DNA of 64,000 nt from an uncultured Acidimicrobiia bacterium (GTDB taxonomy: Bacteria; Actinomycetota; Acidimicrobiia; Spongiisociales; JAENVV01). Shown here in pieces: positions 6,083 to 20,108 of this stretch. The first letter of the stretch is position 1; every line of letters begins with the position of its first letter. The position numbers were made by a program, and so were the translations under genes. The stretch spans positions 27,161 to 91,160 of the forward strand of contig CAWKAG010000042.1 in assembly GCA_963847455.1 (NCBI GenBank), read 5' to 3'. Below the pieces are notes generated by a model. It did no database searches. It saw only the letters and a list, made by a program, of their open reading frames with translations, and had not been told where the DNA came from.

Positions 6083-6904
6083 CTACGGAGCCATCGTCGA
6101 ATACGAGGCGTAGTGATGAATCGCCACGCCTCCATAGCCGCCGGCCCCCGTGAAAGCGGCCTCCACTTTGGCGAGCTCGGCCGCCATGGCCGCCGAACCC
6201 TCCTCGTAGAACGTGACCTTGTCGACCGAAACTGCTCCGGTTTCGACCCCAACGACCACTCGCTTCGACAACTGCGAGCCGAGCGCAACTTCAAAACCGG
6301 CCAGGTCGACGATCCCATCAACACCCTCGGCGTGATCACGATACGCCATGACGACTATCCCGTCGGTGGTGGCCAGCGTCTGTTCGACAAGCGTTTTCCC
6401 CTTGGTCCGGTACTCGTCGAGATCCCACCAGAACGGCACCGCCACCAACATCTCGGTTGATCCCGCCGCCGACGTGGCCGCCTTCACGTTCTTCAGGTAG
6501 GAGGAGATGAGCCGGGAACGTTTGCGGGTGTTCGACCAGTCGGCGAGCAGATATGGTTCAACATCAGCAACGATGCCGTCAAATTGCCCGAAGCCGACCA
6601 CTTCGTTCGTCCAATTGACCCAGGCCGAGCGATTCTTGGCCCAGCTGGCGTCTCCGGCGACAGCCCAGACCCGGAGTCCCAGGTACTGGGCGTCGGCGAT
6701 GAACGGCGCATACCGGGCATCGGAAGAGAAGCCCGGCGGTGCGCTGAGATACAAGTCGGTTACGCCGCGGCTGGTCGCAAACTCAATCACGCCATCAACC
6801 GGGCCGTCCCAAACCCACATCGCCCGATCCGACGATGCTCCGGCGGGAACCGCCAGAGCCATCATGAGTCCAACGAGTGCGGACGTAACCAACCTGTATT
6901 TCAT
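6083..6904 (-). CDS. secreted protein, probable glycoside hydrolase-like TIM barrel
   Basis: Signal peptide, then RAMWVW, FDGIVADVEPY, VMAYRD, VGVET, TFYEEG, AIHHY. The fold is inferred from motif spacing. Confidence 0.6.
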   Translation of the reverse strand: MKYRLVTSALVGLMMALAVPAGASSDRAMWVWDGPVDGVIEFATSRGVTDLYLSAPPGFSSDARYAPFIADAQYLGLRVWAVAGDASWAKNRSAWVNWTNEVVGFGQFDGIVADVEPYLLADWSNTRKRSRLISSYLKNVKAATSAAGSTEMLVAVPFWWDLDEYRTKGKTLVEQTLATTDGIVVMAYRDHAEGVDGIVDLAGFEVALGSQLSKRVVVGVETGAVSVDKVTFYEEGSAAMAAELAKVEAAFTGAGGYGGVAIHHYASYSTMAP

Positions 6905-6986
6905 TCAGAAGCCCCCATAGCTCGACGTTGACCCTAGGCACCGATACCCGAAACATAAAGGAGCAACCTAGGTTCACTCTATGTGA

Positions 6987-8348
6987 CTAGTCCTCGAGCG
7001 AACCAACCTGGTCCGCGGATGGCTCAGCTCAGCAGAACCACGGCTCAGTCAGCCGTGGCCTCCCTTCAAAACTCCCTATTTCAAGCGATTCGGGAGGTAG
7101 TTCGGCAGCTTCGAGAGCCATGGCAAACAGATCGTGAATAATGTCTGACGGTTCGGCATTTGACCGCGTAGAGTGGTCGACGTGCTCGGAGTAGCGAGTC
7201 ACCAACTTCTCGGCACGAGGGTCCATCGCCGCCCATTCATAGGTCAGAAGGTCATGGTCGTAGGCCCCGAGGTAAGGGGTCAACTCGGGTCGCTTGAGGA
7301 GTACGGAACCTTCGGGGATGAGCAGTTTGATCGTGAATTGGATCGGGTCCGTCGGCAGGTCGTACTCGGCAACAAACCGGAACATGTCAACGACATCTTC
7401 GGCAGTGGTCCAAGGCGTAAACGGCAACCAGGAAGGGCGAATGTCGATCCCGACCGATCGCATGATTTCGACAGCTTCGGCCATGTCGTGGCGATCGTGC
7501 CCCTTGTCGAGGATGGTCAGGACATCATCGTTCATCGACTCAAAAGCAGAAACAGCAAACACGACCCCGGCGGCACTCACCCGGTCCCACAGGGTCCGAT
7601 GTTTCAAGATGTGTTCGACCTTCACGGTGATATCGAAGGTCAGATCGGGAAACTGCCGGTGCGCCTCTTCGAGAATCCTCATGGCATGGTGCGGCCCGTT
7701 GAAGAAGTCAGGGTCGCCAAACGTGATGTGCTCGGCCCCCATGCCAACCAGTTGAGCGATGTCGTCGAGAATGACGTCGGCACCCACCACCCGGAACAAC
7801 CCGTCGTAGATTGCCGGGATCGGACAGTGACCACATCGATGCCGGCACCCGTGGCTCGCCTCGACGTATCCGACGACGCGTTCGTGTCCGGCACTTTCCA
7901 TTTTGGCGTACCGGTCGAGCGGCGGCAGCAGGTCGCGGGCGGGAAGCAGAAACGACGACTTGACGAGGTCGCTCGAAACCCCGGAGTCGAGCGTATTGGC
8001 CCAGGATGCCAGCGCCGTTTCGTACTCGCCGACAATAATCCGATCTGCGACCTGTCCGAGCGTCACCGCCTGGCTCATGCCGGCATAGAGGCCGTAGAGA
8101 CATACGGGTTTGTCGGGGAAACGTGCCTTGATCCGGCTGGCCACATCGATGGCAAGCCGCATAGCGGTATGCATCGGCACAGAAAAAGCCACCGCGTCAG
8201 CCCACTCGACGTCGTTCCAGTCAATCGGATCGATCGCCAGGTCCCCGGCCCGTACTTCGTGACCGTCGCCGCGAAGCACGGCGGCGGGCGAGGCGACATG
8301 AAGCGGCTGATGACCCAGCTCATAGGTTGAAATCAGGAGGGCTTTCAC
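6987..8348 (-). CDS. CUAEP-tail B12-binding-type radical SAM selenoprotein (Sec encoded by UGA at 7029-7031)
   Basis: CxxxCxxC (GCRHRCGHCP) and an N-terminal B12-binding-like domain. The ORF-track stop reads through as TEPWFC-U-AEPSADQVGSLED-TAG, with TAG at 6987-6989, matching the CUAEP/CCAEP-tail family signature. Confidence 0.9.
6998..7016 (-). promoter_or_regulatory. bacterial SECIS-like hairpin
   Basis: Minus strand reads UGA-GCUGAGCCAUCC-GCGGACC-AGGUU-GGUUCGC: a 7-bp stem (one G-U) starting 12 nt after the UGA, with an AGGUU loop resembling the AGGUCU loop of the E. coli fdhF SECIS. Confidence 0.8.
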
Positions 8349-8378
8349 CCGCCTAGCCTATCGCCCTAGGCTCCCAAC

Positions 8379-9134
8379 ATGGCCGAAGCAGTCTTCTTCA
8401 AGGGATCCAGGGGTGACGAACTCGCCGGGATCTTCCACCGACCCTCTGGGGACATCAAGGCCGGGCTGGTCATGGCGCACTGCTTCACATGCTCCAAAGA
8501 CCTGTCCGCTTCCAGCCGCATGGCTAAGGCACTCGCCCGGGAAGGGTATGCAGTACTGCGCTTCGACTTCACCGGACTCGGCGAATCTGAGGGGTCGTTT
8601 GAGTCCTCGACATTCGTAGCGAACGTTGGTGACCTCACTCGGGCCGCCCTCTGGCTGATCGACCAGGGCTTCGGACCGTGCGGCATGATCGGGCACAGTC
8701 TCGGCGGGGCAGCAACCCTCGTGGCTGCCAGCCGGATCCGGCCGGTACGCTCGGTTGCGACCATCGGTGCACCCTCGACCGCCAAGCACGTCTTGCATCT
8801 GATCTCGCCCGAAACCCGCGTTCAGGCTGAGGCCGAAGGATGCGCCTACGGGACTATTGGGGGACGGGAGTTTCCGATCTCCTACCAATTCCTCGCCGAC
8901 CTCGAACATTATGACGAGGACGCCGCCCTCAAGAAGCTGGATCGACCGCTGCTCGTGCTGCACTCGCCGGGTGACGAAACCGTGCCGGTGAGCGAGGGTG
9001 AGCGAATCTTCGCAGTGGCTAAGCAACCGAAGGCATTTGCTCCTTTGTTGGCTGCCGATCACCTACTGACCGGGCCGTCCGACGCGGCGCAGGCGTCTAA
9101 ACTTCTCGTTGACTGGTTCGACAGGACGTTGTGA
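8379..9134 (+). CDS. alpha/beta hydrolase resembling the hydrolase module of hydrolase-OsmC fusion proteins
   Basis: AHCFTCSKD, LRFDFTGLGESEG, GHSLGG nucleophile, HSPGD, ADHLL. Confidence 0.88.
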   Translation: MAEAVFFKGSRGDELAGIFHRPSGDIKAGLVMAHCFTCSKDLSASSRMAKALAREGYAVLRFDFTGLGESEGSFESSTFVANVGDLTRAALWLIDQGFGPCGMIGHSLGGAATLVAASRIRPVRSVATIGAPSTAKHVLHLISPETRVQAEAEGCAYGTIGGREFPISYQFLADLEHYDEDAALKKLDRPLLVLHSPGDETVPVSEGERIFAVAKQPKAFAPLLAADHLLTGPSDAAQASKLLVDWFDRTL

Positions 9135-9490
9135 TGGGATTCGATTTCGTCGAAGAGCAAATCCGATTGGCTACTGAACGAGGTGACTTCGACAACTTGC
9201 CAGGAGCCGGCAAGCCGATCGAAGGACTCTCGCGTACCTACGATCCGAACTGGTGGGCTCAGGACTTCCTCAAGCGACTCGCTACCGAGGACCAAAACCG
9301 AGAGCACTCAGCCGAACTTGAGCGAAAGCTGACCAGAGTGTGGGGTATGGAAAATGAAGGTATGGTTCGAACCGCCGTCCGGGACCTCAACGCCGAAGCC
9401 GGGTCCGAAAGATTCGACATTGACGCAGTCCTGGTGAGCTGGCGCAAGTTCCGGGCGTCGCTACGACCACGAGGTGACCGGACATTATGA
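9134..9490 (+). CDS. DUF1992 (DnaJC28-like domain) protein
   Basis: VEEQIRLATERGDFDNLPGAGKPI...WW. Confidence 0.8.
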   Translation: MGFDFVEEQIRLATERGDFDNLPGAGKPIEGLSRTYDPNWWAQDFLKRLATEDQNREHSAELERKLTRVWGMENEGMVRTAVRDLNAEAGSERFDIDAVLVSWRKFRASLRPRGDRTL

Positions 9491-16125: not shown

Positions 16126-17208
16126 ATGGCCAAACTCGATCCGCTCTTTCGGGGGCTCCATCAACAAGGGGGCTCGGACCTCCACCTTGTCTCCGGCCAG
16201 GTGCCGATTATGCGCATCCACGGTGATCTAGTTCGCGTCAAATCTGAACCACTCAATGATCAAACCGTCAGGGCCCTGCTGCGCGAGATCACCCCACCGG
16301 CCATCTGGGAGATGTTTGAAGAGACAGGCGACGTCGACTTCGGCTACGAAGTTGCCGGCCTGGCACGATTCCGCGCCAACCTCTTCGTACAAAAGAGTGG
16401 CGCGGCAGGCGTATTTCGTTTGATCCCCGAGGAGATCCTCACCTGCGACCAACTGAACCTTCCTCCACAGGTTCGCAACCTGGCGCAACTCCACAAAGGC
16501 CTGGTGCTCGTAACCGGGCCGACCGGATCGGGTAAATCAACCACATTGGCTGCCATCATCGACGAGGCCAACAAAACCCGCAACGATCACATTCTTACGA
16601 TCGAAGACCCGGTGGAGTTCGTCCACAAAAGCCGCATGTCGCTGGTCAATCACCGTGAGGTCGGCAGCCACACCCGCTCGTTCGCCGCAGCCCTAAGGGC
16701 CGCACTGCGAGAAGACCCTGATGTAATTCTGGTCGGCGAGATGCGCGACCTGGAAACCATCCGCCTGGCGATCGAAGCCGCCGCGACTGGCCACCTCGTG
16801 TTTGGAACCTTGCACACCAACAACGCTGCCAAAACTGTGGACCGTATCATTGAGGTTTTCCCGGCTGATGAACAAGAGCAGATTCGCTCAACACTGGCGG
16901 ACTCGCTCAAGGCCGTCGTAGCCCAGACGTTATTCCGAACCATTGACACACCGGGACGGGTGGCAGCGCTCGAGATCATGATCTGCACCCCTGCGATTGG
17001 CAACCTGATCAGGGAAGGCAAGACGTTCCAGATCCCATCGCTCATGCAGACCGGCCGATCTGGAGGCATGCAAACACTTGATCATGCGATCCTCGAACTT
17101 CTCAACGCCAAGCGAATCGATCCGGAAACAGCCGTCGAACGTGCCATCAACACGGAATTGATCCTGCCGTTCCTACCGGCAGGACATCCAGCCAAACAGG
17201 CGACATGA
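16126..17208 (+). CDS. pilT: type IV pilus retraction ATPase PilT
   Basis: SDLHL, GPTGSGKSTT, TIEDPVE, ALREDPD, GHLVFGTLH, AIGNLIRE, GMQT. Confidence 0.95.
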   Translation: MAKLDPLFRGLHQQGGSDLHLVSGQVPIMRIHGDLVRVKSEPLNDQTVRALLREITPPAIWEMFEETGDVDFGYEVAGLARFRANLFVQKSGAAGVFRLIPEEILTCDQLNLPPQVRNLAQLHKGLVLVTGPTGSGKSTTLAAIIDEANKTRNDHILTIEDPVEFVHKSRMSLVNHREVGSHTRSFAAALRAALREDPDVILVGEMRDLETIRLAIEAAATGHLVFGTLHTNNAAKTVDRIIEVFPADEQEQIRSTLADSLKAVVAQTLFRTIDTPGRVAALEIMICTPAIGNLIREGKTFQIPSLMQTGRSGGMQTLDHAILELLNAKRIDPETAVERAINTELILPFLPAGHPAKQAT

Positions 17209-18167: not shown

Positions 18168-18797
18168 CTATTTCTTGGCAGCTTCGTAGTACGGATCGGT
18201 TCCGGACGCATGATCGGTGACATCTTCGACGGCCAGTAGCTCTGGGATAGCATCCTTGAGAATCCGTTCGATCCCTTGCTTCAGGGTTACCGATGCCATC
18301 CCGCAGCCCTGGCAGCCACCCATGAGCTGCAAATACGCCGTCCGGTCATCGACAGATACAAGCTTGGCCGCTCCGCCATGCCCGGCAATCGCCGGGTTCA
18401 CCTGGCGCTCGATCACTTGCTGCACCTTGTCGGCGAGGGGGCCAACCAGATCTCCAGGAATGCTATCGGTGTTCATCAGCGGGGTGGCCGGTTGATTCGG
18501 ATTGTCGATCGCCAGCGCAGGGTTCGCCGGATCGGACCCGAGCGAAAGCGTCGCCCCATCGAGGTTTTCGGTGTCCTTCTTCGGAATCAACACCGAGAGC
18601 TCGCCGTAGCTATACCGCTCGTCGGTATCCTTCTGGTCAGAAACCGGCATGAAGCTGAGTTCATACACAAACTGCGGGCCTTTGATCCCGGTGATTTCGA
18701 TAAAGAGGGCGAGTTCGTGCTCGGACTCTTCGCCATCGCGTATCTCTATGATTTTTCCGACTGCGTCTTCCGTGATCGAAAGCGGTTGGGTGCTCAC
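18168..18797 (-). CDS. nfuA: Fe-S cluster carrier NfuA (degenerate A-type domain plus NifU-C domain)
   Basis: VNPAIAGHGG, GGCQGC, TLKQGIE, DVTDH..G.DPYY. GTG start after GGAG. Confidence 0.92.
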   Translation of the reverse strand: MSTQPLSITEDAVGKIIEIRDGEESEHELALFIEITGIKGPQFVYELSFMPVSDQKDTDERYSYGELSVLIPKKDTENLDGATLSLGSDPANPALAIDNPNQPATPLMNTDSIPGDLVGPLADKVQQVIERQVNPAIAGHGGAAKLVSVDDRTAYLQLMGGCQGCGMASVTLKQGIERILKDAIPELLAVEDVTDHASGTDPYYEAAKK

Positions 18798-18874
18798 GTG
18801 AATCTCCACTGTCCGTGTCCGCGCATGTTAGTTCAGATTTCATCTTCGTCATCCCCACCTACCATCATGGGCCT

Positions 18875-20108
18875 ATGGAGCGGGTAGCCATCATCCTCCC
18901 TTCGGAGACCTATCGGGCGAAAGCGTTCGTTGAGGCGGCGCGTGATCTCGGAGTCCAACTCACCGTCGTTTCAGAAAAGCGACAGCTACTCCTGAGCGAA
19001 GCGGAATTCTTACAGATCGATCTCGCCAGCCCCATGCAGGCTGCCGCCGACATCGTAGAACGCCATACGGCAACACCATTCGCCGCCATCATTCCCGTTG
19101 ACGACCAGGGAGTACTCGTGGCTGCCTACGCCGCCCACGATCTCGGTTTGGCCCACAACCATCCGGCCGCGGTAGCCACCACGCGCGAAAAGGCCATGCT
19201 CCGACGGGCCCTGCGGGACAAAGTCCCTCAGCCGCCTTTCGTCGTCGTCGAGCGTTCAGCGGATGCCGCCGAGGTCGCGGCAGGACTTAAAATGCCACTC
19301 GTCATCAAACCGCTCAGCCTGGCGGCTTCACAGGGTGTCATCCGGGTTGACACGCCACACGAGGCACCGGCCGCCGTAGCGCGAATTCGTCGGATCCTGG
19401 CGTGCAGCGACCGAAATCCCAACGAGCCACTCCTCTTCGAGCGGTTCGTCCCCGGCGACGAAGTTGCGGTCGAAGGAGTTCTGGTCAAAGGGGCGCTGAA
19501 GATCCTGGCGGTGCTGGACAAACCTGATCCGCTCGACGGCCCCTATTTCGAGGAGTCGATCTACGTCACGCCGTCGCGTCACCACCCCGAGATACTCGCC
19601 GAGGTAGCCCGGGTAACCCAGCTGGCCATCGATGCGATCGGGCTCACCGAGGGACCGGTGCACGCGGAGCTACGGATCGATGGATCCTTCGTCCGACTGA
19701 TCGAGCTTGCGGCACGCCCGATCGGGGGCTTATGCGGCGAAGCGCTGCAATTCGGACTCCTCGGGACAAGTCTGGAAACCATGCTCCTGCCGCGCCGCCC
19801 TTGGCATGCGCATCCCCGAGATCCGGCCGTATCACCCTTCGTCTGGCGTCATGATGCTTCCAACACCGACCAGCGGAACCTTCCGGGGGGTGTCGGGTGG
19901 CGCCCAGGCCCTTGCCGTCGGTGGCATCACAAAACTGACGGTCAGCGTCCCGGTGGGCGAGCCGGTCGAATCGTGGCCAGAAGGCAACCGCTACCTCGGC
20001 TTCTTGTTCGCGACGGGCCAGACCCCCGCCGAAGTTGAACATGCGCTGCGAACTGCCTTTGCGCTCCTCACTATCGAGATAGACGAGCGCCCCACCGAAT
20101 CCGCTTAG
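18875..20108 (+). CDS. ATP-grasp domain protein, split by a +1 frameshift at ~19790
   Basis: VIKPLSLAASQGV, FVPGDEVAVEG, HAELR, IELAARPIGG. Removing one C in CTG-C-CGC joins it to RAALGM...WPEGNRYLGFLFA and gives ~410 aa. Confidence 0.85.

What the first reader, a model, noticed from the sequence alone, without database searches (positions are those of the whole stretch)
6987..8348. Radical SAM selenoprotein with a Cys-Sec C-terminal tail, truncated by standard ORF calling
Seen in sequence: the gene continues past the called stop as TGG TTC TGC TGA GCT GAG CCA (W-F-C-UGA-A-E-P) to a TAG 14 codons later. A GCGGACC/AGGUU/GGUUCGC hairpin starts 12 nt after the UGA, inside the coding tail. Established: bacterial Sec insertion needs such a downstream SECIS, and a CUAEP/CCAEP-tail radical SAM family exists with Cys or Sec at this position. 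To my knowledge its reaction is unknown. Inference: a vicinal Cys-Sec pair on a C-terminal arm of a B12-type radical SAM enzyme could act as a redox arm, metal ligand or methyl/metalloid acceptor. It also implies Sec machinery in this actinobacterium, although no selA/B/C/D gene is in the window.
Basis: partly seen in the sequence, partly recalled or inferred. Interest (0 to 1): 0.82.

Follow-up and report, generated by a model that had tools for sequence, protein, structure and literature searches.

The report
Known radical SAM selenoprotein, correctly spotted
This gene is a normal member of an already catalogued family of radical SAM enzymes that carry a cysteine-selenocysteine pair near their end, so the apparent stop codon is read as selenocysteine; what the enzyme makes is still unknown.

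Summary
The minus-strand gene 8348..6987 reads ...TEPWFC-UGA-AEPSADQVGSLED-TAG, and a 7-bp hairpin starts 12 nt after the UGA.

The UGA is almost certainly selenocysteine.
- Of 46 orthologs, 33 have TGA and 13 have TGT/TGC at that codon, and E442 and P443 are invariant beyond it.
- The hairpin is kept with compensatory changes in TGA genes only: 224/231 cells pair, against 34/91 in Cys genes.
- The genome has selA, selB, tRNA-Sec and a Sec-containing selD.

The protein passes the curated NCBIfam model NF040546, "CUAEP/CCAEP-tail radical SAM (seleno)protein", at 531.8 bits against a cut-off of 500. The finding is therefore correct but already known. Databases commonly truncate these proteins at WFC.

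Function is unknown in print. The closest characterised relative is ArsL, whose C-terminal cysteines hold As(III) for C-As bond formation. My best guess, about 0.35, is an ArsL-like reaction in which the Cys-Sec arm holds a soft atom.

One added lead: an L-amino-acid-ligase-type ATP-grasp gene lies directly upstream in 17 of 32 genomes that have both genes. In this window it lies about 10.5 kb away and is frameshifted.

The parts
6987..8348 (-). Full selenoprotein gene: 453 codons plus the TAG stop. Table 11 calls only 7029..8348 (439 aa).
   Evidence: NF040546 at 531.8 bits, cut-off 500. It is the single copy in the genome, with 1 in-frame TGA.
8346..8348 (-). GTG start codon
   Evidence: 36 of the 37 published full-length orthologs listed begin with M, V or L at the aligned position, followed by ..LL.STYELG; L034 reads A there.
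8007..8336 (-). N-terminal Rossmann-like domain (B12-binding-like), residues 5-114. It contains the family-invariant P58-M59-H60-T61-A62.
   Evidence: Pfam PF02310 at 28.5 bits, below its gathering score of 32.1. Invariant columns. Fold matches AprD4, OxsB and TsrM.
7374..7859 (-). Radical SAM core domain, residues 164-325
   Evidence: Pfam PF04055 at 50.4 bits.
7824..7847 (-). CxxxCxxC motif (C168, C172, C175) for the [4Fe-4S]/SAM cluster
   Evidence: Translates to CRHRCGHC. The three Cys are invariant in 46 of 46 orthologs.
7029..7034 (-). TGC TGA = Cys439-Sec440, the vicinal C-U pair
   Evidence: C439 is present in 46 of 46 orthologs. Position 440 is TGA in 33 and TGT/TGC in 13.
6998..7016 (-). 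SECIS-type hairpin: 7-bp stem GCGGACC/GGUUCGC with 5-nt loop AGGUU, 12 nt after the UGA
   Evidence: 96.9% of cells pair, 4 of 7 pairs show compensatory changes, and 0 of 500 shuffles match. Cys-type orthologs pair in 34 of 91 cells.
6990..7028 (-). 13-codon tail AEPSADQVGSLED translated after the Sec codon
   Evidence: E442 and P443 are conserved in 46 of 46 orthologs and Q447 in 45 of 46. The first and third codons vary synonymously among relatives.
6987..6989 (-). True stop codon, TAG
18815..20108 (+). L-amino-acid-ligase-type ATP-grasp gene, a candidate functional partner. In this assembly it is split between two reading frames near 19782-19789.
   Evidence: Two matches in different frames. 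Pfam ATP-grasp_4 and ATPgrasp_N in one ORF and LAL_C2 in the other. Its ortholog lies directly upstream of the radical SAM gene in 17 of 32 genomes that have both.
18168..18809 (-). NfuA-like Fe-S carrier gene, divergent from the ATP-grasp gene
   Evidence: Pfam NifU. NfuA models score below their cut-offs. It sits beside the ATP-grasp gene in all 10 of the 21 loci where that gene is in view.

Best explanation
Identity (confidence about 0.95): the gene encodes a 453-residue member of the curated CUAEP/CCAEP-tail radical SAM (seleno)protein family, NF040546.

Decoding (confidence about 0.95):
- Codon 440 (UGA) is read as selenocysteine, not stop.
- The 7-bp hairpin 12 nt downstream, inside the coding tail, acts as the bacterial SECIS.
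- It recruits SelB with Sec-tRNA(Sec), and translation ends 13 codons later at TAG.
- Binding of the hairpin by SelB is inferred, not shown.

Chemistry (inferred, confidence about 0.35): the enzyme works like its closest characterised relative, ArsL.
- The [4Fe-4S] cluster on C168/C172/C175 cleaves SAM.
- The conserved C-terminal arm ...LTEPWF-C-U-AEP holds a soft, thiophilic substrate atom on its vicinal Cys-Sec pair and presents it to the SAM-derived carbon. In ArsL that carbon is the 3-amino-3-carboxypropyl group, so a carbon-heteroatom bond forms.
- The product would be a methionine-shaped amino acid that the linked L-amino-acid-ligase-type ATP-grasp enzyme could then join to another amino acid.
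- Which atom is held (As, Se, S or a metal) is not known.

The single confidence figure below is for the whole statement.
For: Sec decoding:
- The protein scores 531.8 bits on NF040546 (cut-off 500), aligned over 4-449 of the protein and 2-467 of 468 model positions.
- 47 ortholog loci were examined and 46 carry the motif; L061 is cut by a contig end. 33 have TGA and 13 have TGT/TGC at codon 440. C439, E442 and P443 are 46 of 46 and Q447 is 45 of 46.
- All 8 genomes of the genus have TGA.
- Codons after the UGA vary synonymously (GCT/GCG/GCA and CCA/CCT/CCC/CCG).
- Stem statistics on 33 TGA genes: 96.9% of cells pair, 38 cells show double changes, 0 of 500 shuffles match, and slid controls give 35-62%. 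RNAalifold finds the same stem.
- Direct count: TGA genes pair in 224 of 231 cells and 27 of 33 stems are perfect. Cys genes pair in 34 of 91 cells and 0 of 13 stems are perfect. With the 8 unpublished genomes left out the TGA figures are 170 of 175 and 21 of 25.
- Thermomicrobium roseum, from another phylum, has WFC-TGA-AEP and a hairpin at the same 12-nt offset.
- Sec machinery in the genome: selA 407 bits, selB 332 bits, selD 389 bits with U at GAGUACK, and tRNA-Sec 76 bits with anticodon tca.
- The protein tree needs at least 5 Sec/Cys switches, of which well-supported branches force at least 2.

ArsL-like chemistry:
- The ArsL model NF040542 is by far the second-best hit, at 278.7 bits and E 1e-82. 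The next family scores 41 bits.
- Identity to a Pseudomonas amygdali ArsL is 31.8% over residues 1-382.
- ArsL also ends in a vicinal Cys pair (RCCLKC), which binds As(III) and is needed for C-As bond formation (passages read; Discussion read).
- No auxiliary-cluster Cys set is conserved. The only invariant Cys are the CxxxCxxC triad and C439.

ATP-grasp partner:
- In the phylum sample, 32 of 34 genomes with the radical SAM gene have the ATP-grasp gene, against 11 of 367 without it.
- In 17 of those 32 it lies no more than 110 nt upstream on the same strand, across families f15, f22, f29, f60 and f65. Leaving out unpublished genomes, the count is 16 of 27.
- Within family f22 the split is 10 with both, 1 with the radical SAM gene only, 2 with the ATP-grasp gene only and 13 with neither.
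- The closest solved relative of the ATP-grasp protein is an L-amino acid ligase, 3vot, at E 7e-31.
Against: Sec decoding:
- There is no direct evidence of selenium in the protein, and no RNA run was listed.
- No Rfam family matches the hairpin.
- One relative with the TGA form, G008 (98% complete), gave no selA hit at E <= 1e-40.

ArsL-like chemistry:
- The ArsL model is not passed (278.7 against a cut-off of 450), and its match stops at residue 386, so the two tails are analogous rather than aligned.
- This family has two invariant chalcogen positions where ArsL has three Cys.
- The tail is acidic (E435, E442) where ArsL's is basic (KRCCLKC).
- The family-invariant PMHTA motif is VPLFDS in ArsL.
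- No ars gene cluster recurred in the 21 neighbourhoods compared, unlike arsQ-arsL-arsM-arsN1.

ATP-grasp partner:
- In the window's own order the ATP-grasp gene is present in 39 of 41 genomes, including 11 of the 12 that lack the radical SAM gene. It does not depend on the radical SAM gene.
- In this window it is about 10.5 kb away, on the other strand, and frameshifted.
- T. roseum has none within 8 kb.
- Related genomes are not independent observations.

Structure:
- Model confidence for residues 441-453 is about 50 or lower, and the coordinates could not be read. The distance between the arm and the cluster was therefore not measured.
Confidence: 0.55

Rival explanations
1. Redox arm. The enzyme does canonical 5'-deoxyadenosyl radical chemistry. 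The C-terminal Cys-Sec pair acts like the GCUG tail of mammalian thioredoxin reductase, or like the C-terminal cysteines of ribonucleotide reductases. It donates a hydrogen atom and an electron to a substrate or product radical, closes to a selenenylsulfide, and is reduced again by a thioredoxin-type protein.
For: - A vicinal C-U pair sits on a C-terminal extension that the model places with lower confidence than the core (pLDDT about 74 for 431-440, about 50 beyond).
- Cys replaces Sec at least 2-5 times on the tree, as is usual for redox selenoproteins.
- The best structural neighbour is AprD4, a radical SAM 1,2-diol dehydratase, by PDB title.
- The tail has two, not three, chalcogen positions and acidic flanks, unlike the As(III)-binding tail of ArsL.
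- The thioredoxin reductase and RNR precedents are recalled, not taken from a call.
Against: - The closest characterised relative by sequence uses its tail to bind substrate, not for redox.
- No thioredoxin-like or reductase gene recurs beside the gene in the 21 neighbourhoods compared.
- Nothing here tests redox activity.
Confidence: 0.25
2. Sulfur or selenium carrier. The Cys-Sec pair carries a sulfane sulfur or selenium atom as a persulfide or perselenide. That atom is inserted into a substrate carbon radical, in the manner of the methylthiotransferases MiaB and RimO.
For: - MiaB and RimO are among the structural matches (TM 0.55-0.64), and their PDB titles name polysulfide bridges.
- An NfuA-like Fe-S carrier gene always sits beside the linked ATP-grasp gene.
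Against: - No conserved N-terminal Cys triad for an auxiliary cluster exists.
- Sequence similarity to RimO is marginal, at 21.5 bits.
- No cysteine desulfurase or rhodanese gene recurs nearby.
Confidence: 0.1
3. Cobalamin-dependent methyltransferase. The N-terminal domain binds cobalamin, and the enzyme methylates a carbon or a metalloid held by the tail.
For: - The domain architecture and fold match cobalamin-dependent enzymes such as OxsB, TsrM, MgmA, CysS and TokK.
- There are weak hits to B12-binding radical SAM families.
Against: - The Pfam B12-binding hit is below its gathering score.
- Those families score no more than 41 bits, against 279 for ArsL.
- The ArsL preprint has no occurrence of 'cobalamin' or 'B12' in its text.
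- The top structural hit, AprD4, names no cobalamin in its PDB title.
Confidence: 0.07
4. The TGA is a real stop. The protein ends at WFC, and the hairpin is a transcript-end or regulatory structure.
For: - Standard gene callers make this call, and 72 of the 120 best database relatives are stored that way.
- Sec insertion is never fully efficient, so some truncated product is likely (established knowledge, recalled).
Against: - Amino-acid conservation continues in frame past the TGA (E442 and P443 in 46 of 46).
- Cys codons replace TGA in 13 of 46 orthologs.
- The covarying stem occurs only in TGA genes.
- No T run follows the stem.
- A full Sec machinery is present.
Confidence: 0.03

Closest known systems
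NCBIfam NF040546, CUAEP/CCAEP-tail radical SAM (seleno)protein
   Same: The protein passes the curated cut-off (531.8 against 500). It has the CxxxCxxC motif, the N-terminal Rossmann-like domain and the C-[U/C]-A-E-P tail. NCBI already gives this name to a protein cluster 91% identical to it (P0003). It is a member.
   Different: Nothing of note. The family's reaction is uncharacterised: the only paper found that names it calls it 'uncharacterized'.
ArsL (NF040542, RCCLKC-tail radical SAM protein; arsinothricin biosynthesis)
   Same: It is the nearest characterised relative, at 278.7 bits on the model and 31.8% identity over residues 1-382. It shares the domain order and a C-terminal vicinal Cys pair. 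In ArsL that pair binds the substrate As(III).
   Different: - The cut-off of 450 is not met.
- ArsL's tail has three Cys and basic flanks, against C-U with acidic flanks here.
- About 40-50 extra residues precede the tail in this family.
- There is no arsQ/arsM/arsN context (against 77).
- PMHTA is invariant here and absent from ArsL.
- No Sec form of ArsL was seen in the calls made.
Radical SAM enzymes with an N-terminal B12-binding-like domain (AprD4, OxsB, TsrM, MgmA, CysS, TokK)
   Same: The overall fold matches: Foldseek E 6e-19 to 1e-11, TM 0.58-0.68.
   Different: Sequence identity is 13-18%. None has a C-terminal Cys-Sec arm. Cobalamin binding by this family is untested.
Other 'CU' selenoproteins: HgcA, the SAO-locus proteins and MerT-type proteins (Haft preprint); the GCUG tail of thioredoxin reductase (recalled)
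   Same: All have a vicinal Cys-Sec dipeptide. [quoted passage not shown]
   Different: The folds and contexts are unrelated. The comparison concerns the dipeptide only.
Bacterial SECIS elements (the fdhF type)
   Same: A stem-loop lies immediately 3' of the UGA, inside the reading frame, with G/U in the apical loop (AGGUU, AGUUC, AGUUG). Its position is fixed at 12 nt in 33 of 33 genes. The comparison with fdhF is recalled.
   Different: No Rfam model matches it. Binding by SelB is not shown.

Membership tests
NF040546 CUAEP/CCAEP-tail radical SAM (seleno)protein | Whole-protein score at or above the curated cut-off of 500 bits | tested here: met
   531.8 bits, E 1.4e-159, model positions 2-467 of 468. 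524.8 bits in the genome search.
NF040546 CUAEP/CCAEP-tail radical SAM (seleno)protein | C-terminal C-[U/C]-A-E-P motif | tested here: met
   WFC-UGA-AEP at 7040..7020. The motif is shared by 46 of 47 ortholog loci.
NF040546 CUAEP/CCAEP-tail radical SAM (seleno)protein | Radical SAM CxxxCxxC cluster motif | tested here: met
   CRHRCGHC at 7847..7824. Pfam PF04055 at 50.4 bits.
Bacterial selenoprotein gene | In-frame UGA aligned with Cys in homologs, with conservation continuing downstream | tested here: met
   33 TGA and 13 Cys codons among 46 orthologs. E442 and P443 are 46 of 46.
Bacterial selenoprotein gene | SECIS stem-loop just downstream of the UGA, supported by covariation | tested here: met
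   96.9% of cells pair, 4 of 7 pairs show double changes, 0 of 500 shuffles match. Absent from the Cys forms.
Bacterial selenoprotein gene | selA, selB, selC (tRNA-Sec) and selD in the same genome | tested here: met
   The genome is a draft, 86% complete with 3.7% contamination, and these genes lie on other contigs. selA was also found in 6 of the 7 other genomes of the genus.
Bacterial selenoprotein gene | Selenium shown in the protein (75Se labelling or MS) | not testable with these tools
   Needs an experiment. No RNA or proteome data were available.
ArsL (NF040542) | Score at or above the curated cut-off of 450 bits | tested here: not met
   278.7 bits.
ArsL (NF040542) | RCCLKC tail with three Cys that bind As(III) | tested here: not met
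   The tail is WFCUAEP. No third invariant Cys exists in the family.
ArsL (NF040542) | Arsenic gene context (arsQ, arsM, arsN) | tested here: not met
   None appears among the recurring neighbours in 21 loci. Compare.
ArsL (NF040542) | SAM cleaved at the C-gamma-S bond (3-amino-3-carboxypropyl transfer) | not testable with these tools
   Needs an enzyme assay.
Cobalamin-dependent (class B) radical SAM enzymes | B12-binding domain and bound cobalamin | tested here: inconclusive
   Pfam PF02310 scores 28.5, below its gathering score of 32.1. The fold resembles both cobalamin-binding members and AprD4. Binding itself cannot be tested here.

The most novel reading that the evidence does not exclude
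The CUAEP/CCAEP radical SAM enzyme and the L-amino-acid-ligase-type ATP-grasp enzyme, with DUF169 in some lineages, form an undescribed pathway. It is widespread in Actinomycetota and also present in Thermomicrobium. An ArsL-type transfer of the 3-amino-3-carboxypropyl group of SAM onto a soft atom held by the Cys-Sec clamp makes a methionine-shaped amino acid containing selenium, arsenic or another heteroatom. The ligase then builds that amino acid into a dipeptide.
Probability: 0.15. Interest if true: 0.75.

Novelty: already known. Interest (0 to 1): 0.35.

Why it matters
For annotation, this is one more case in which standard gene calling cuts off the residue most likely to matter for catalysis. 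72 of the 120 nearest database entries, and the RefSeq entry of a cultured species, end at WFC.

For biology, the family is very large: 7992 of the 8000 scored database clusters had E <= 1e-20. It is found in about a twelfth of the sampled genomes of its phylum (34 of 401), and it has no known reaction.

ArsL has now been characterised, which gives the family a concrete, testable model: a chalcogen clamp on a C-terminal arm feeding an unusual SAM-cleaving active site.

The ATP-grasp ligase linkage found here, and the presence of the gene in the culturable Thermomicrobium roseum DSM 5159, give practical routes to testing that model.

The locus also shows clearly how a SECIS inside a reading frame shapes the protein. 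The residues after Q447 are conserved as G-[S/P]-[L/F] mainly in Sec forms, where they encode the 3' arm of the stem.

Tried and rejected
- Wider distribution: the search for related loci on genome contigs gave no answer twice. Distribution outside the phylum therefore rests only on one plasmid-collection hit, T. roseum.
- Rfam: the scan of 6850-7150 at E <= 10 gave no SECIS family, only four chance-level hits.
- Solved structures: by sequence, only weak Elp3 matches appeared (E 2e-4). No ArsL or CUAEP structure was found.
The alignment did.
- selA as a discriminator: selA is present in 37 of 41 relatives whether the gene is Sec- or Cys-type, so it does not separate the two forms.
- Immediate neighbours in the window: the 273-aa secreted-looking protein at 6083..6904, the alpha/beta hydrolase at 8379..9134, PlsB and the UvrD-like helicases are not conserved partners across the 21 loci.
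- ABC-2 exporter genes: they lie downstream in 7 loci of the window's order only, which I read as local synteny.
- DUF169: nothing useful was found in print.
- Sequencing runs: no RNA holder was listed.
  - Only assembled contigs could be laid. One contig, possibly the source sample, matches 6900-8961 with 0 differences.
  - Other runs cover the tail bin at low depth, with no listed difference among the rows shown (103 rows were not shown).
  - No indel was listed at the ATP-grasp frameshift. This neither confirms nor refutes the frameshift.
- Model coordinates: they were not readable, so the distance from the arm to the cluster was not measured.
- Complex prediction was not used, because no claim of binding is made.
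- Supplementary files of the ArsL papers (alignments, Figures S3, S7 and S9) were not seen. They may show whether the authors compared this sister family.
Full report
**Observation.** The gene lies on the minus strand. Table 11 gives an ORF 7029..8348 of 439 aa that starts at GTG and ends at TGA. On the minus strand the end reads TGG TTC TGC TGA GCT GAG CCA TCC GCGGACC AGGTT GGTTCGC TCG AGG ACT AG. With TGA read as U, the frame runs on for 13 codons (AEPSADQVGSLED) to TAG at 6989..6987, giving 453 residues. Folded alone, the region is only mildly more stable than shuffles (z -1.97; 6 of 200 shuffles fold as well), and the single-sequence optimum is a different pairing. The case for the hairpin therefore rests on comparison.

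**Is the UGA selenocysteine?** I collected orthologs with the family model: 41 genomes related to the window's genome and 401 genomes sampled across its phylum. Of 47 loci, 46 carry the tail motif; L061 is cut by a contig end. 33 have TGA and 13 have TGT or TGC at the same codon. In a 46-row alignment:
- C439 is invariant, and position 440 is U in 33 rows and C in 13;
- E442 and P443 are invariant, and Q447 is 45 of 46;
- the only other invariant cysteines are the CxxxCxxC triad.

All eight genomes of the window's genus have TGA, so it is not an assembly error. Codons just after the UGA change synonymously among relatives.

**The hairpin.** The 33 TGA genes align without gaps over 57 nt. The stem (columns 25-31 with 37-43) pairs in 96.9% of cells. 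Four of its seven pairs show changes on both sides (38 cells), and 0 of 500 shuffles reach the observed covariation. Sliding the partner by 1-3 columns drops pairing to 35-62%. RNAalifold predicts the same stem independently. Counted directly:
- TGA genes pair in 224 of 231 cells, with 27 of 33 stems perfect;
- the 13 Cys-codon genes pair in 34 of 91 cells, with no perfect stem;
- leaving out the eight loci from unpublished genomes gives 170 of 175 cells and 21 of 25 stems.

The stem has no T run after it and is not scored as a terminator. Thermomicrobium roseum, from a different phylum, has WFC-TGA-AEP and a GGACCC/GGGUCC hairpin at the same offset. A protein tree built without the tail columns needs at least five Sec/Cys switches. 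Well-supported branches force at least two.

**Machinery.** The window has no tRNA gene. The draft genome is 86% complete, with 3.7% contamination and 84 contigs. It holds:
- selA (407 bits) and selB (332 bits) side by side on contig C61;
- selD (389 bits) on C58, with one in-frame TGA that falls at the active-site position (SHGAGUACK);
- a second selD fragment at the edge of C32;
- a tRNA-Sec on C32 (76 bits; ARAGORN anticodon tca).

selA is found in 37 of 41 relatives, whether their gene is Sec- or Cys-type. One exception is G008, which has the TGA form and is 98% complete but gave no selA hit at E <= 1e-40. I could not explain this.

**What it is.** The full protein scores 531.8 bits on NCBIfam NF040546, "CUAEP/CCAEP-tail radical SAM (seleno)protein" (cut-off 500). 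The second-best hit is NF040542, ArsL, at 278.7 bits (cut-off 450, not met). Nothing else exceeds 41 bits. Pfam finds Radical_SAM and a sub-threshold B12-binding domain.
- An AlphaFold2 model built on 33 orthologs is confident (pLDDT 91.3, pTM 0.90). Confidence falls to about 74 for residues 431-440 and to about 50 or lower beyond that.
- Its best structural matches are AprD4, OxsB, MgmA, TsrM, CysS and MiaB/RimO. No close relative has a solved structure by sequence.
- In the large protein collection, 7992 of 8000 scored candidates had E <= 1e-20. NCBI already names close relatives with the family name (91% identity, Acidimicrobiia). Of the 120 best hits, 72 end at W[FY]C and 48 read CC[AS]EP.
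- The RefSeq protein of T. roseum also stops at WFC.

The finding is therefore right, and the family is already curated as a selenoprotein. In the paper library, one preprint names the family, in one sentence, as uncharacterised and as one of the few 'CU' selenoproteins (I read only the passages found). A 2026 review's selenoprotein table lists other radical SAM selenoproteins in the passages I saw. A library-wide search for 'NF040546' returned only the preprint, not that review.

**Surroundings.** In the window the gene is followed, on the same strand, by a 273-aa protein with a signal-peptide-like start and no family. It faces an alpha/beta hydrolase, and PlsB and two UvrD-like helicases lie nearby. 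Clustering ORFs from 21 loci, each taken with about 8 kb of flank on either side where the contig allows, showed that none of these is a general partner.

One gene does recur: an ATP-grasp enzyme with L-amino-acid-ligase domains (PF13535, PF18130, PF18603). Its closest solved relative is the ligase 3vot.
- In the phylum sample, 32 of 34 genomes with the radical SAM gene have it, against 11 of 367 without it.
- The positions in those 32 genomes break down as follows.

| Position of the ATP-grasp gene | Genomes |
|---|---|
| No more than 110 nt upstream, same strand (families f15, f22, f29, f60, f65) | 17 |
| About 0.5 kb upstream | 1 |
| 1-1.7 kb away | 2 |
| 3 kb away, other strand | 1 |
| 10-183 kb away | 5 |
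| On another contig | 6 |

- Leaving out unpublished genomes, 16 of 27 are directly adjacent.
- An NfuA-like gene is always divergent from the ATP-grasp gene, and DUF169 follows or precedes the radical SAM gene in five loci.

Three observations count against a strict partnership.
- In the window's order the ATP-grasp gene is in 39 of 41 genomes, including 11 of the 12 without the radical SAM gene.
- In the window it lies about 10.5 kb away at 18815..20108, on the other strand, and is split between two frames near 19782-19789. The seven other genomes of the genus have it intact.
- T. roseum has none within 8 kb.

**How it probably works.** ArsL cleaves SAM at the C-gamma-S bond and joins the 3-amino-3-carboxypropyl group to As(III). 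Its C-terminal RCCLKC cysteines bind the arsenic and are required for product formation but not for SAM cleavage. A recent preprint proposes an electrophilic Fe-C species that the bound arsenic attacks.

The CUAEP family is ArsL's sister by sequence and also ends in a vicinal chalcogen pair on a C-terminal extension. I therefore take an ArsL-like mechanism as the best single guess, at about 0.35: the Cys-Sec clamp holds a soft atom and presents it to the SAM-derived carbon. The linked amino-acid ligase fits an amino-acid product. From memory, the 3vot ligase prefers methionine-like N-terminal substrates; I did not check this.

The differences from ArsL are real:
- two conserved chalcogen positions instead of three;
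- acidic rather than basic flanks;
- an extra 40-50 residues before the tail;
- a family-specific invariant PMHTA motif;
- no arsenic genes nearby.

The substrate atom is therefore probably not arsenite. A redox-arm role (about 0.25), a sulfur or selenium carrier role (about 0.1) and cobalamin-dependent methylation (about 0.07) are not excluded.

**Verdict.** The observation and interpretation are confirmed. The gene is an ordinary member of a known, curated selenoprotein family of unknown reaction. The residual value lies in the covariation-backed SECIS, the measured extent of truncated annotations, the ATP-grasp ligase lead, and a culturable organism in which to test them.

Noticed in passing
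window 18815..20108 (+), break near 19782-19789: The L-amino-acid-ligase-type ATP-grasp gene is split between two reading frames in this assembly. The N-terminal and central domains lie in ORF 18815..20038, and the LAL_C2 domain lies in ORF 19707..20108. The seven other genomes of the genus have a single intact match. This is either an assembly indel or a recent pseudogene.
   Followed up: partly
L010 (G000 contig C58, 3578-4507, minus strand): The genome's selD is itself a selenoprotein gene, with an in-frame TGA at the active-site position (SHGAGUACK). A second, partial selD copy sits at the edge of contig C32, the contig that carries tRNA-Sec.
   Followed up: partly
L094 (NC_011961.1, Thermomicrobium roseum megaplasmid), locus 7932-9440: [quoted passage not shown] The next codon is TGA, followed in frame by AEPLEDPSG... 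and a hairpin. The annotation of a cultured strain is therefore truncated before the Sec residue. Its neighbours are a divergent PLP aminotransferase, an MFS transporter and a large GNAT acetyltransferase.
   Followed up: partly
G008 (same family as the window's genome): This genome, 98% complete, has the TGA form of the gene but gave no selA match at E <= 1e-40.
   Followed up: no
G000 contigs C28 (about 33.7-35.0 kb) and C51 (about 32.4-33.8 kb): Two contigs carry an EF-Tu-like GTPase hit preceded by a tRNA-like hit. The tRNA-like hits have identical scores (33.8 bits each). This suggests a duplicated region, strain mixture or contamination in the draft genome.
   Followed up: no
window 6083..6904 (-): A 273-aa protein lies directly downstream of the selenoprotein gene. 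It has a signal-peptide-like N-terminus and no Pfam or NCBIfam match. It is conserved next to the gene in only one other locus (L068).
   Followed up: partly
ATP-grasp matches in G226, G326, G034, G023 and G032: Several ATP-grasp matches that extend further towards the N-terminus than usual include 1-2 in-frame TGA codons. This is probably read-through upstream of the true start, but it was not examined.
   Followed up: no
window 16668..17111: Summed contig depth in three metagenome runs jumps here, to as much as 43.6 against about 2 elsewhere, with many loose ends. The stretch lies in a PilT/T2SSE-type ATPase gene and is probably shared by many organisms in those samples.
   Followed up: no
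L082-L085 and L078 (loci from other families of the phylum): A DUF169 (PF02596) gene sits immediately downstream of the radical SAM gene in four loci and upstream of the ATP-grasp gene in one. The window's genome has its only DUF169 gene on another contig (C25).
   Followed up: partly
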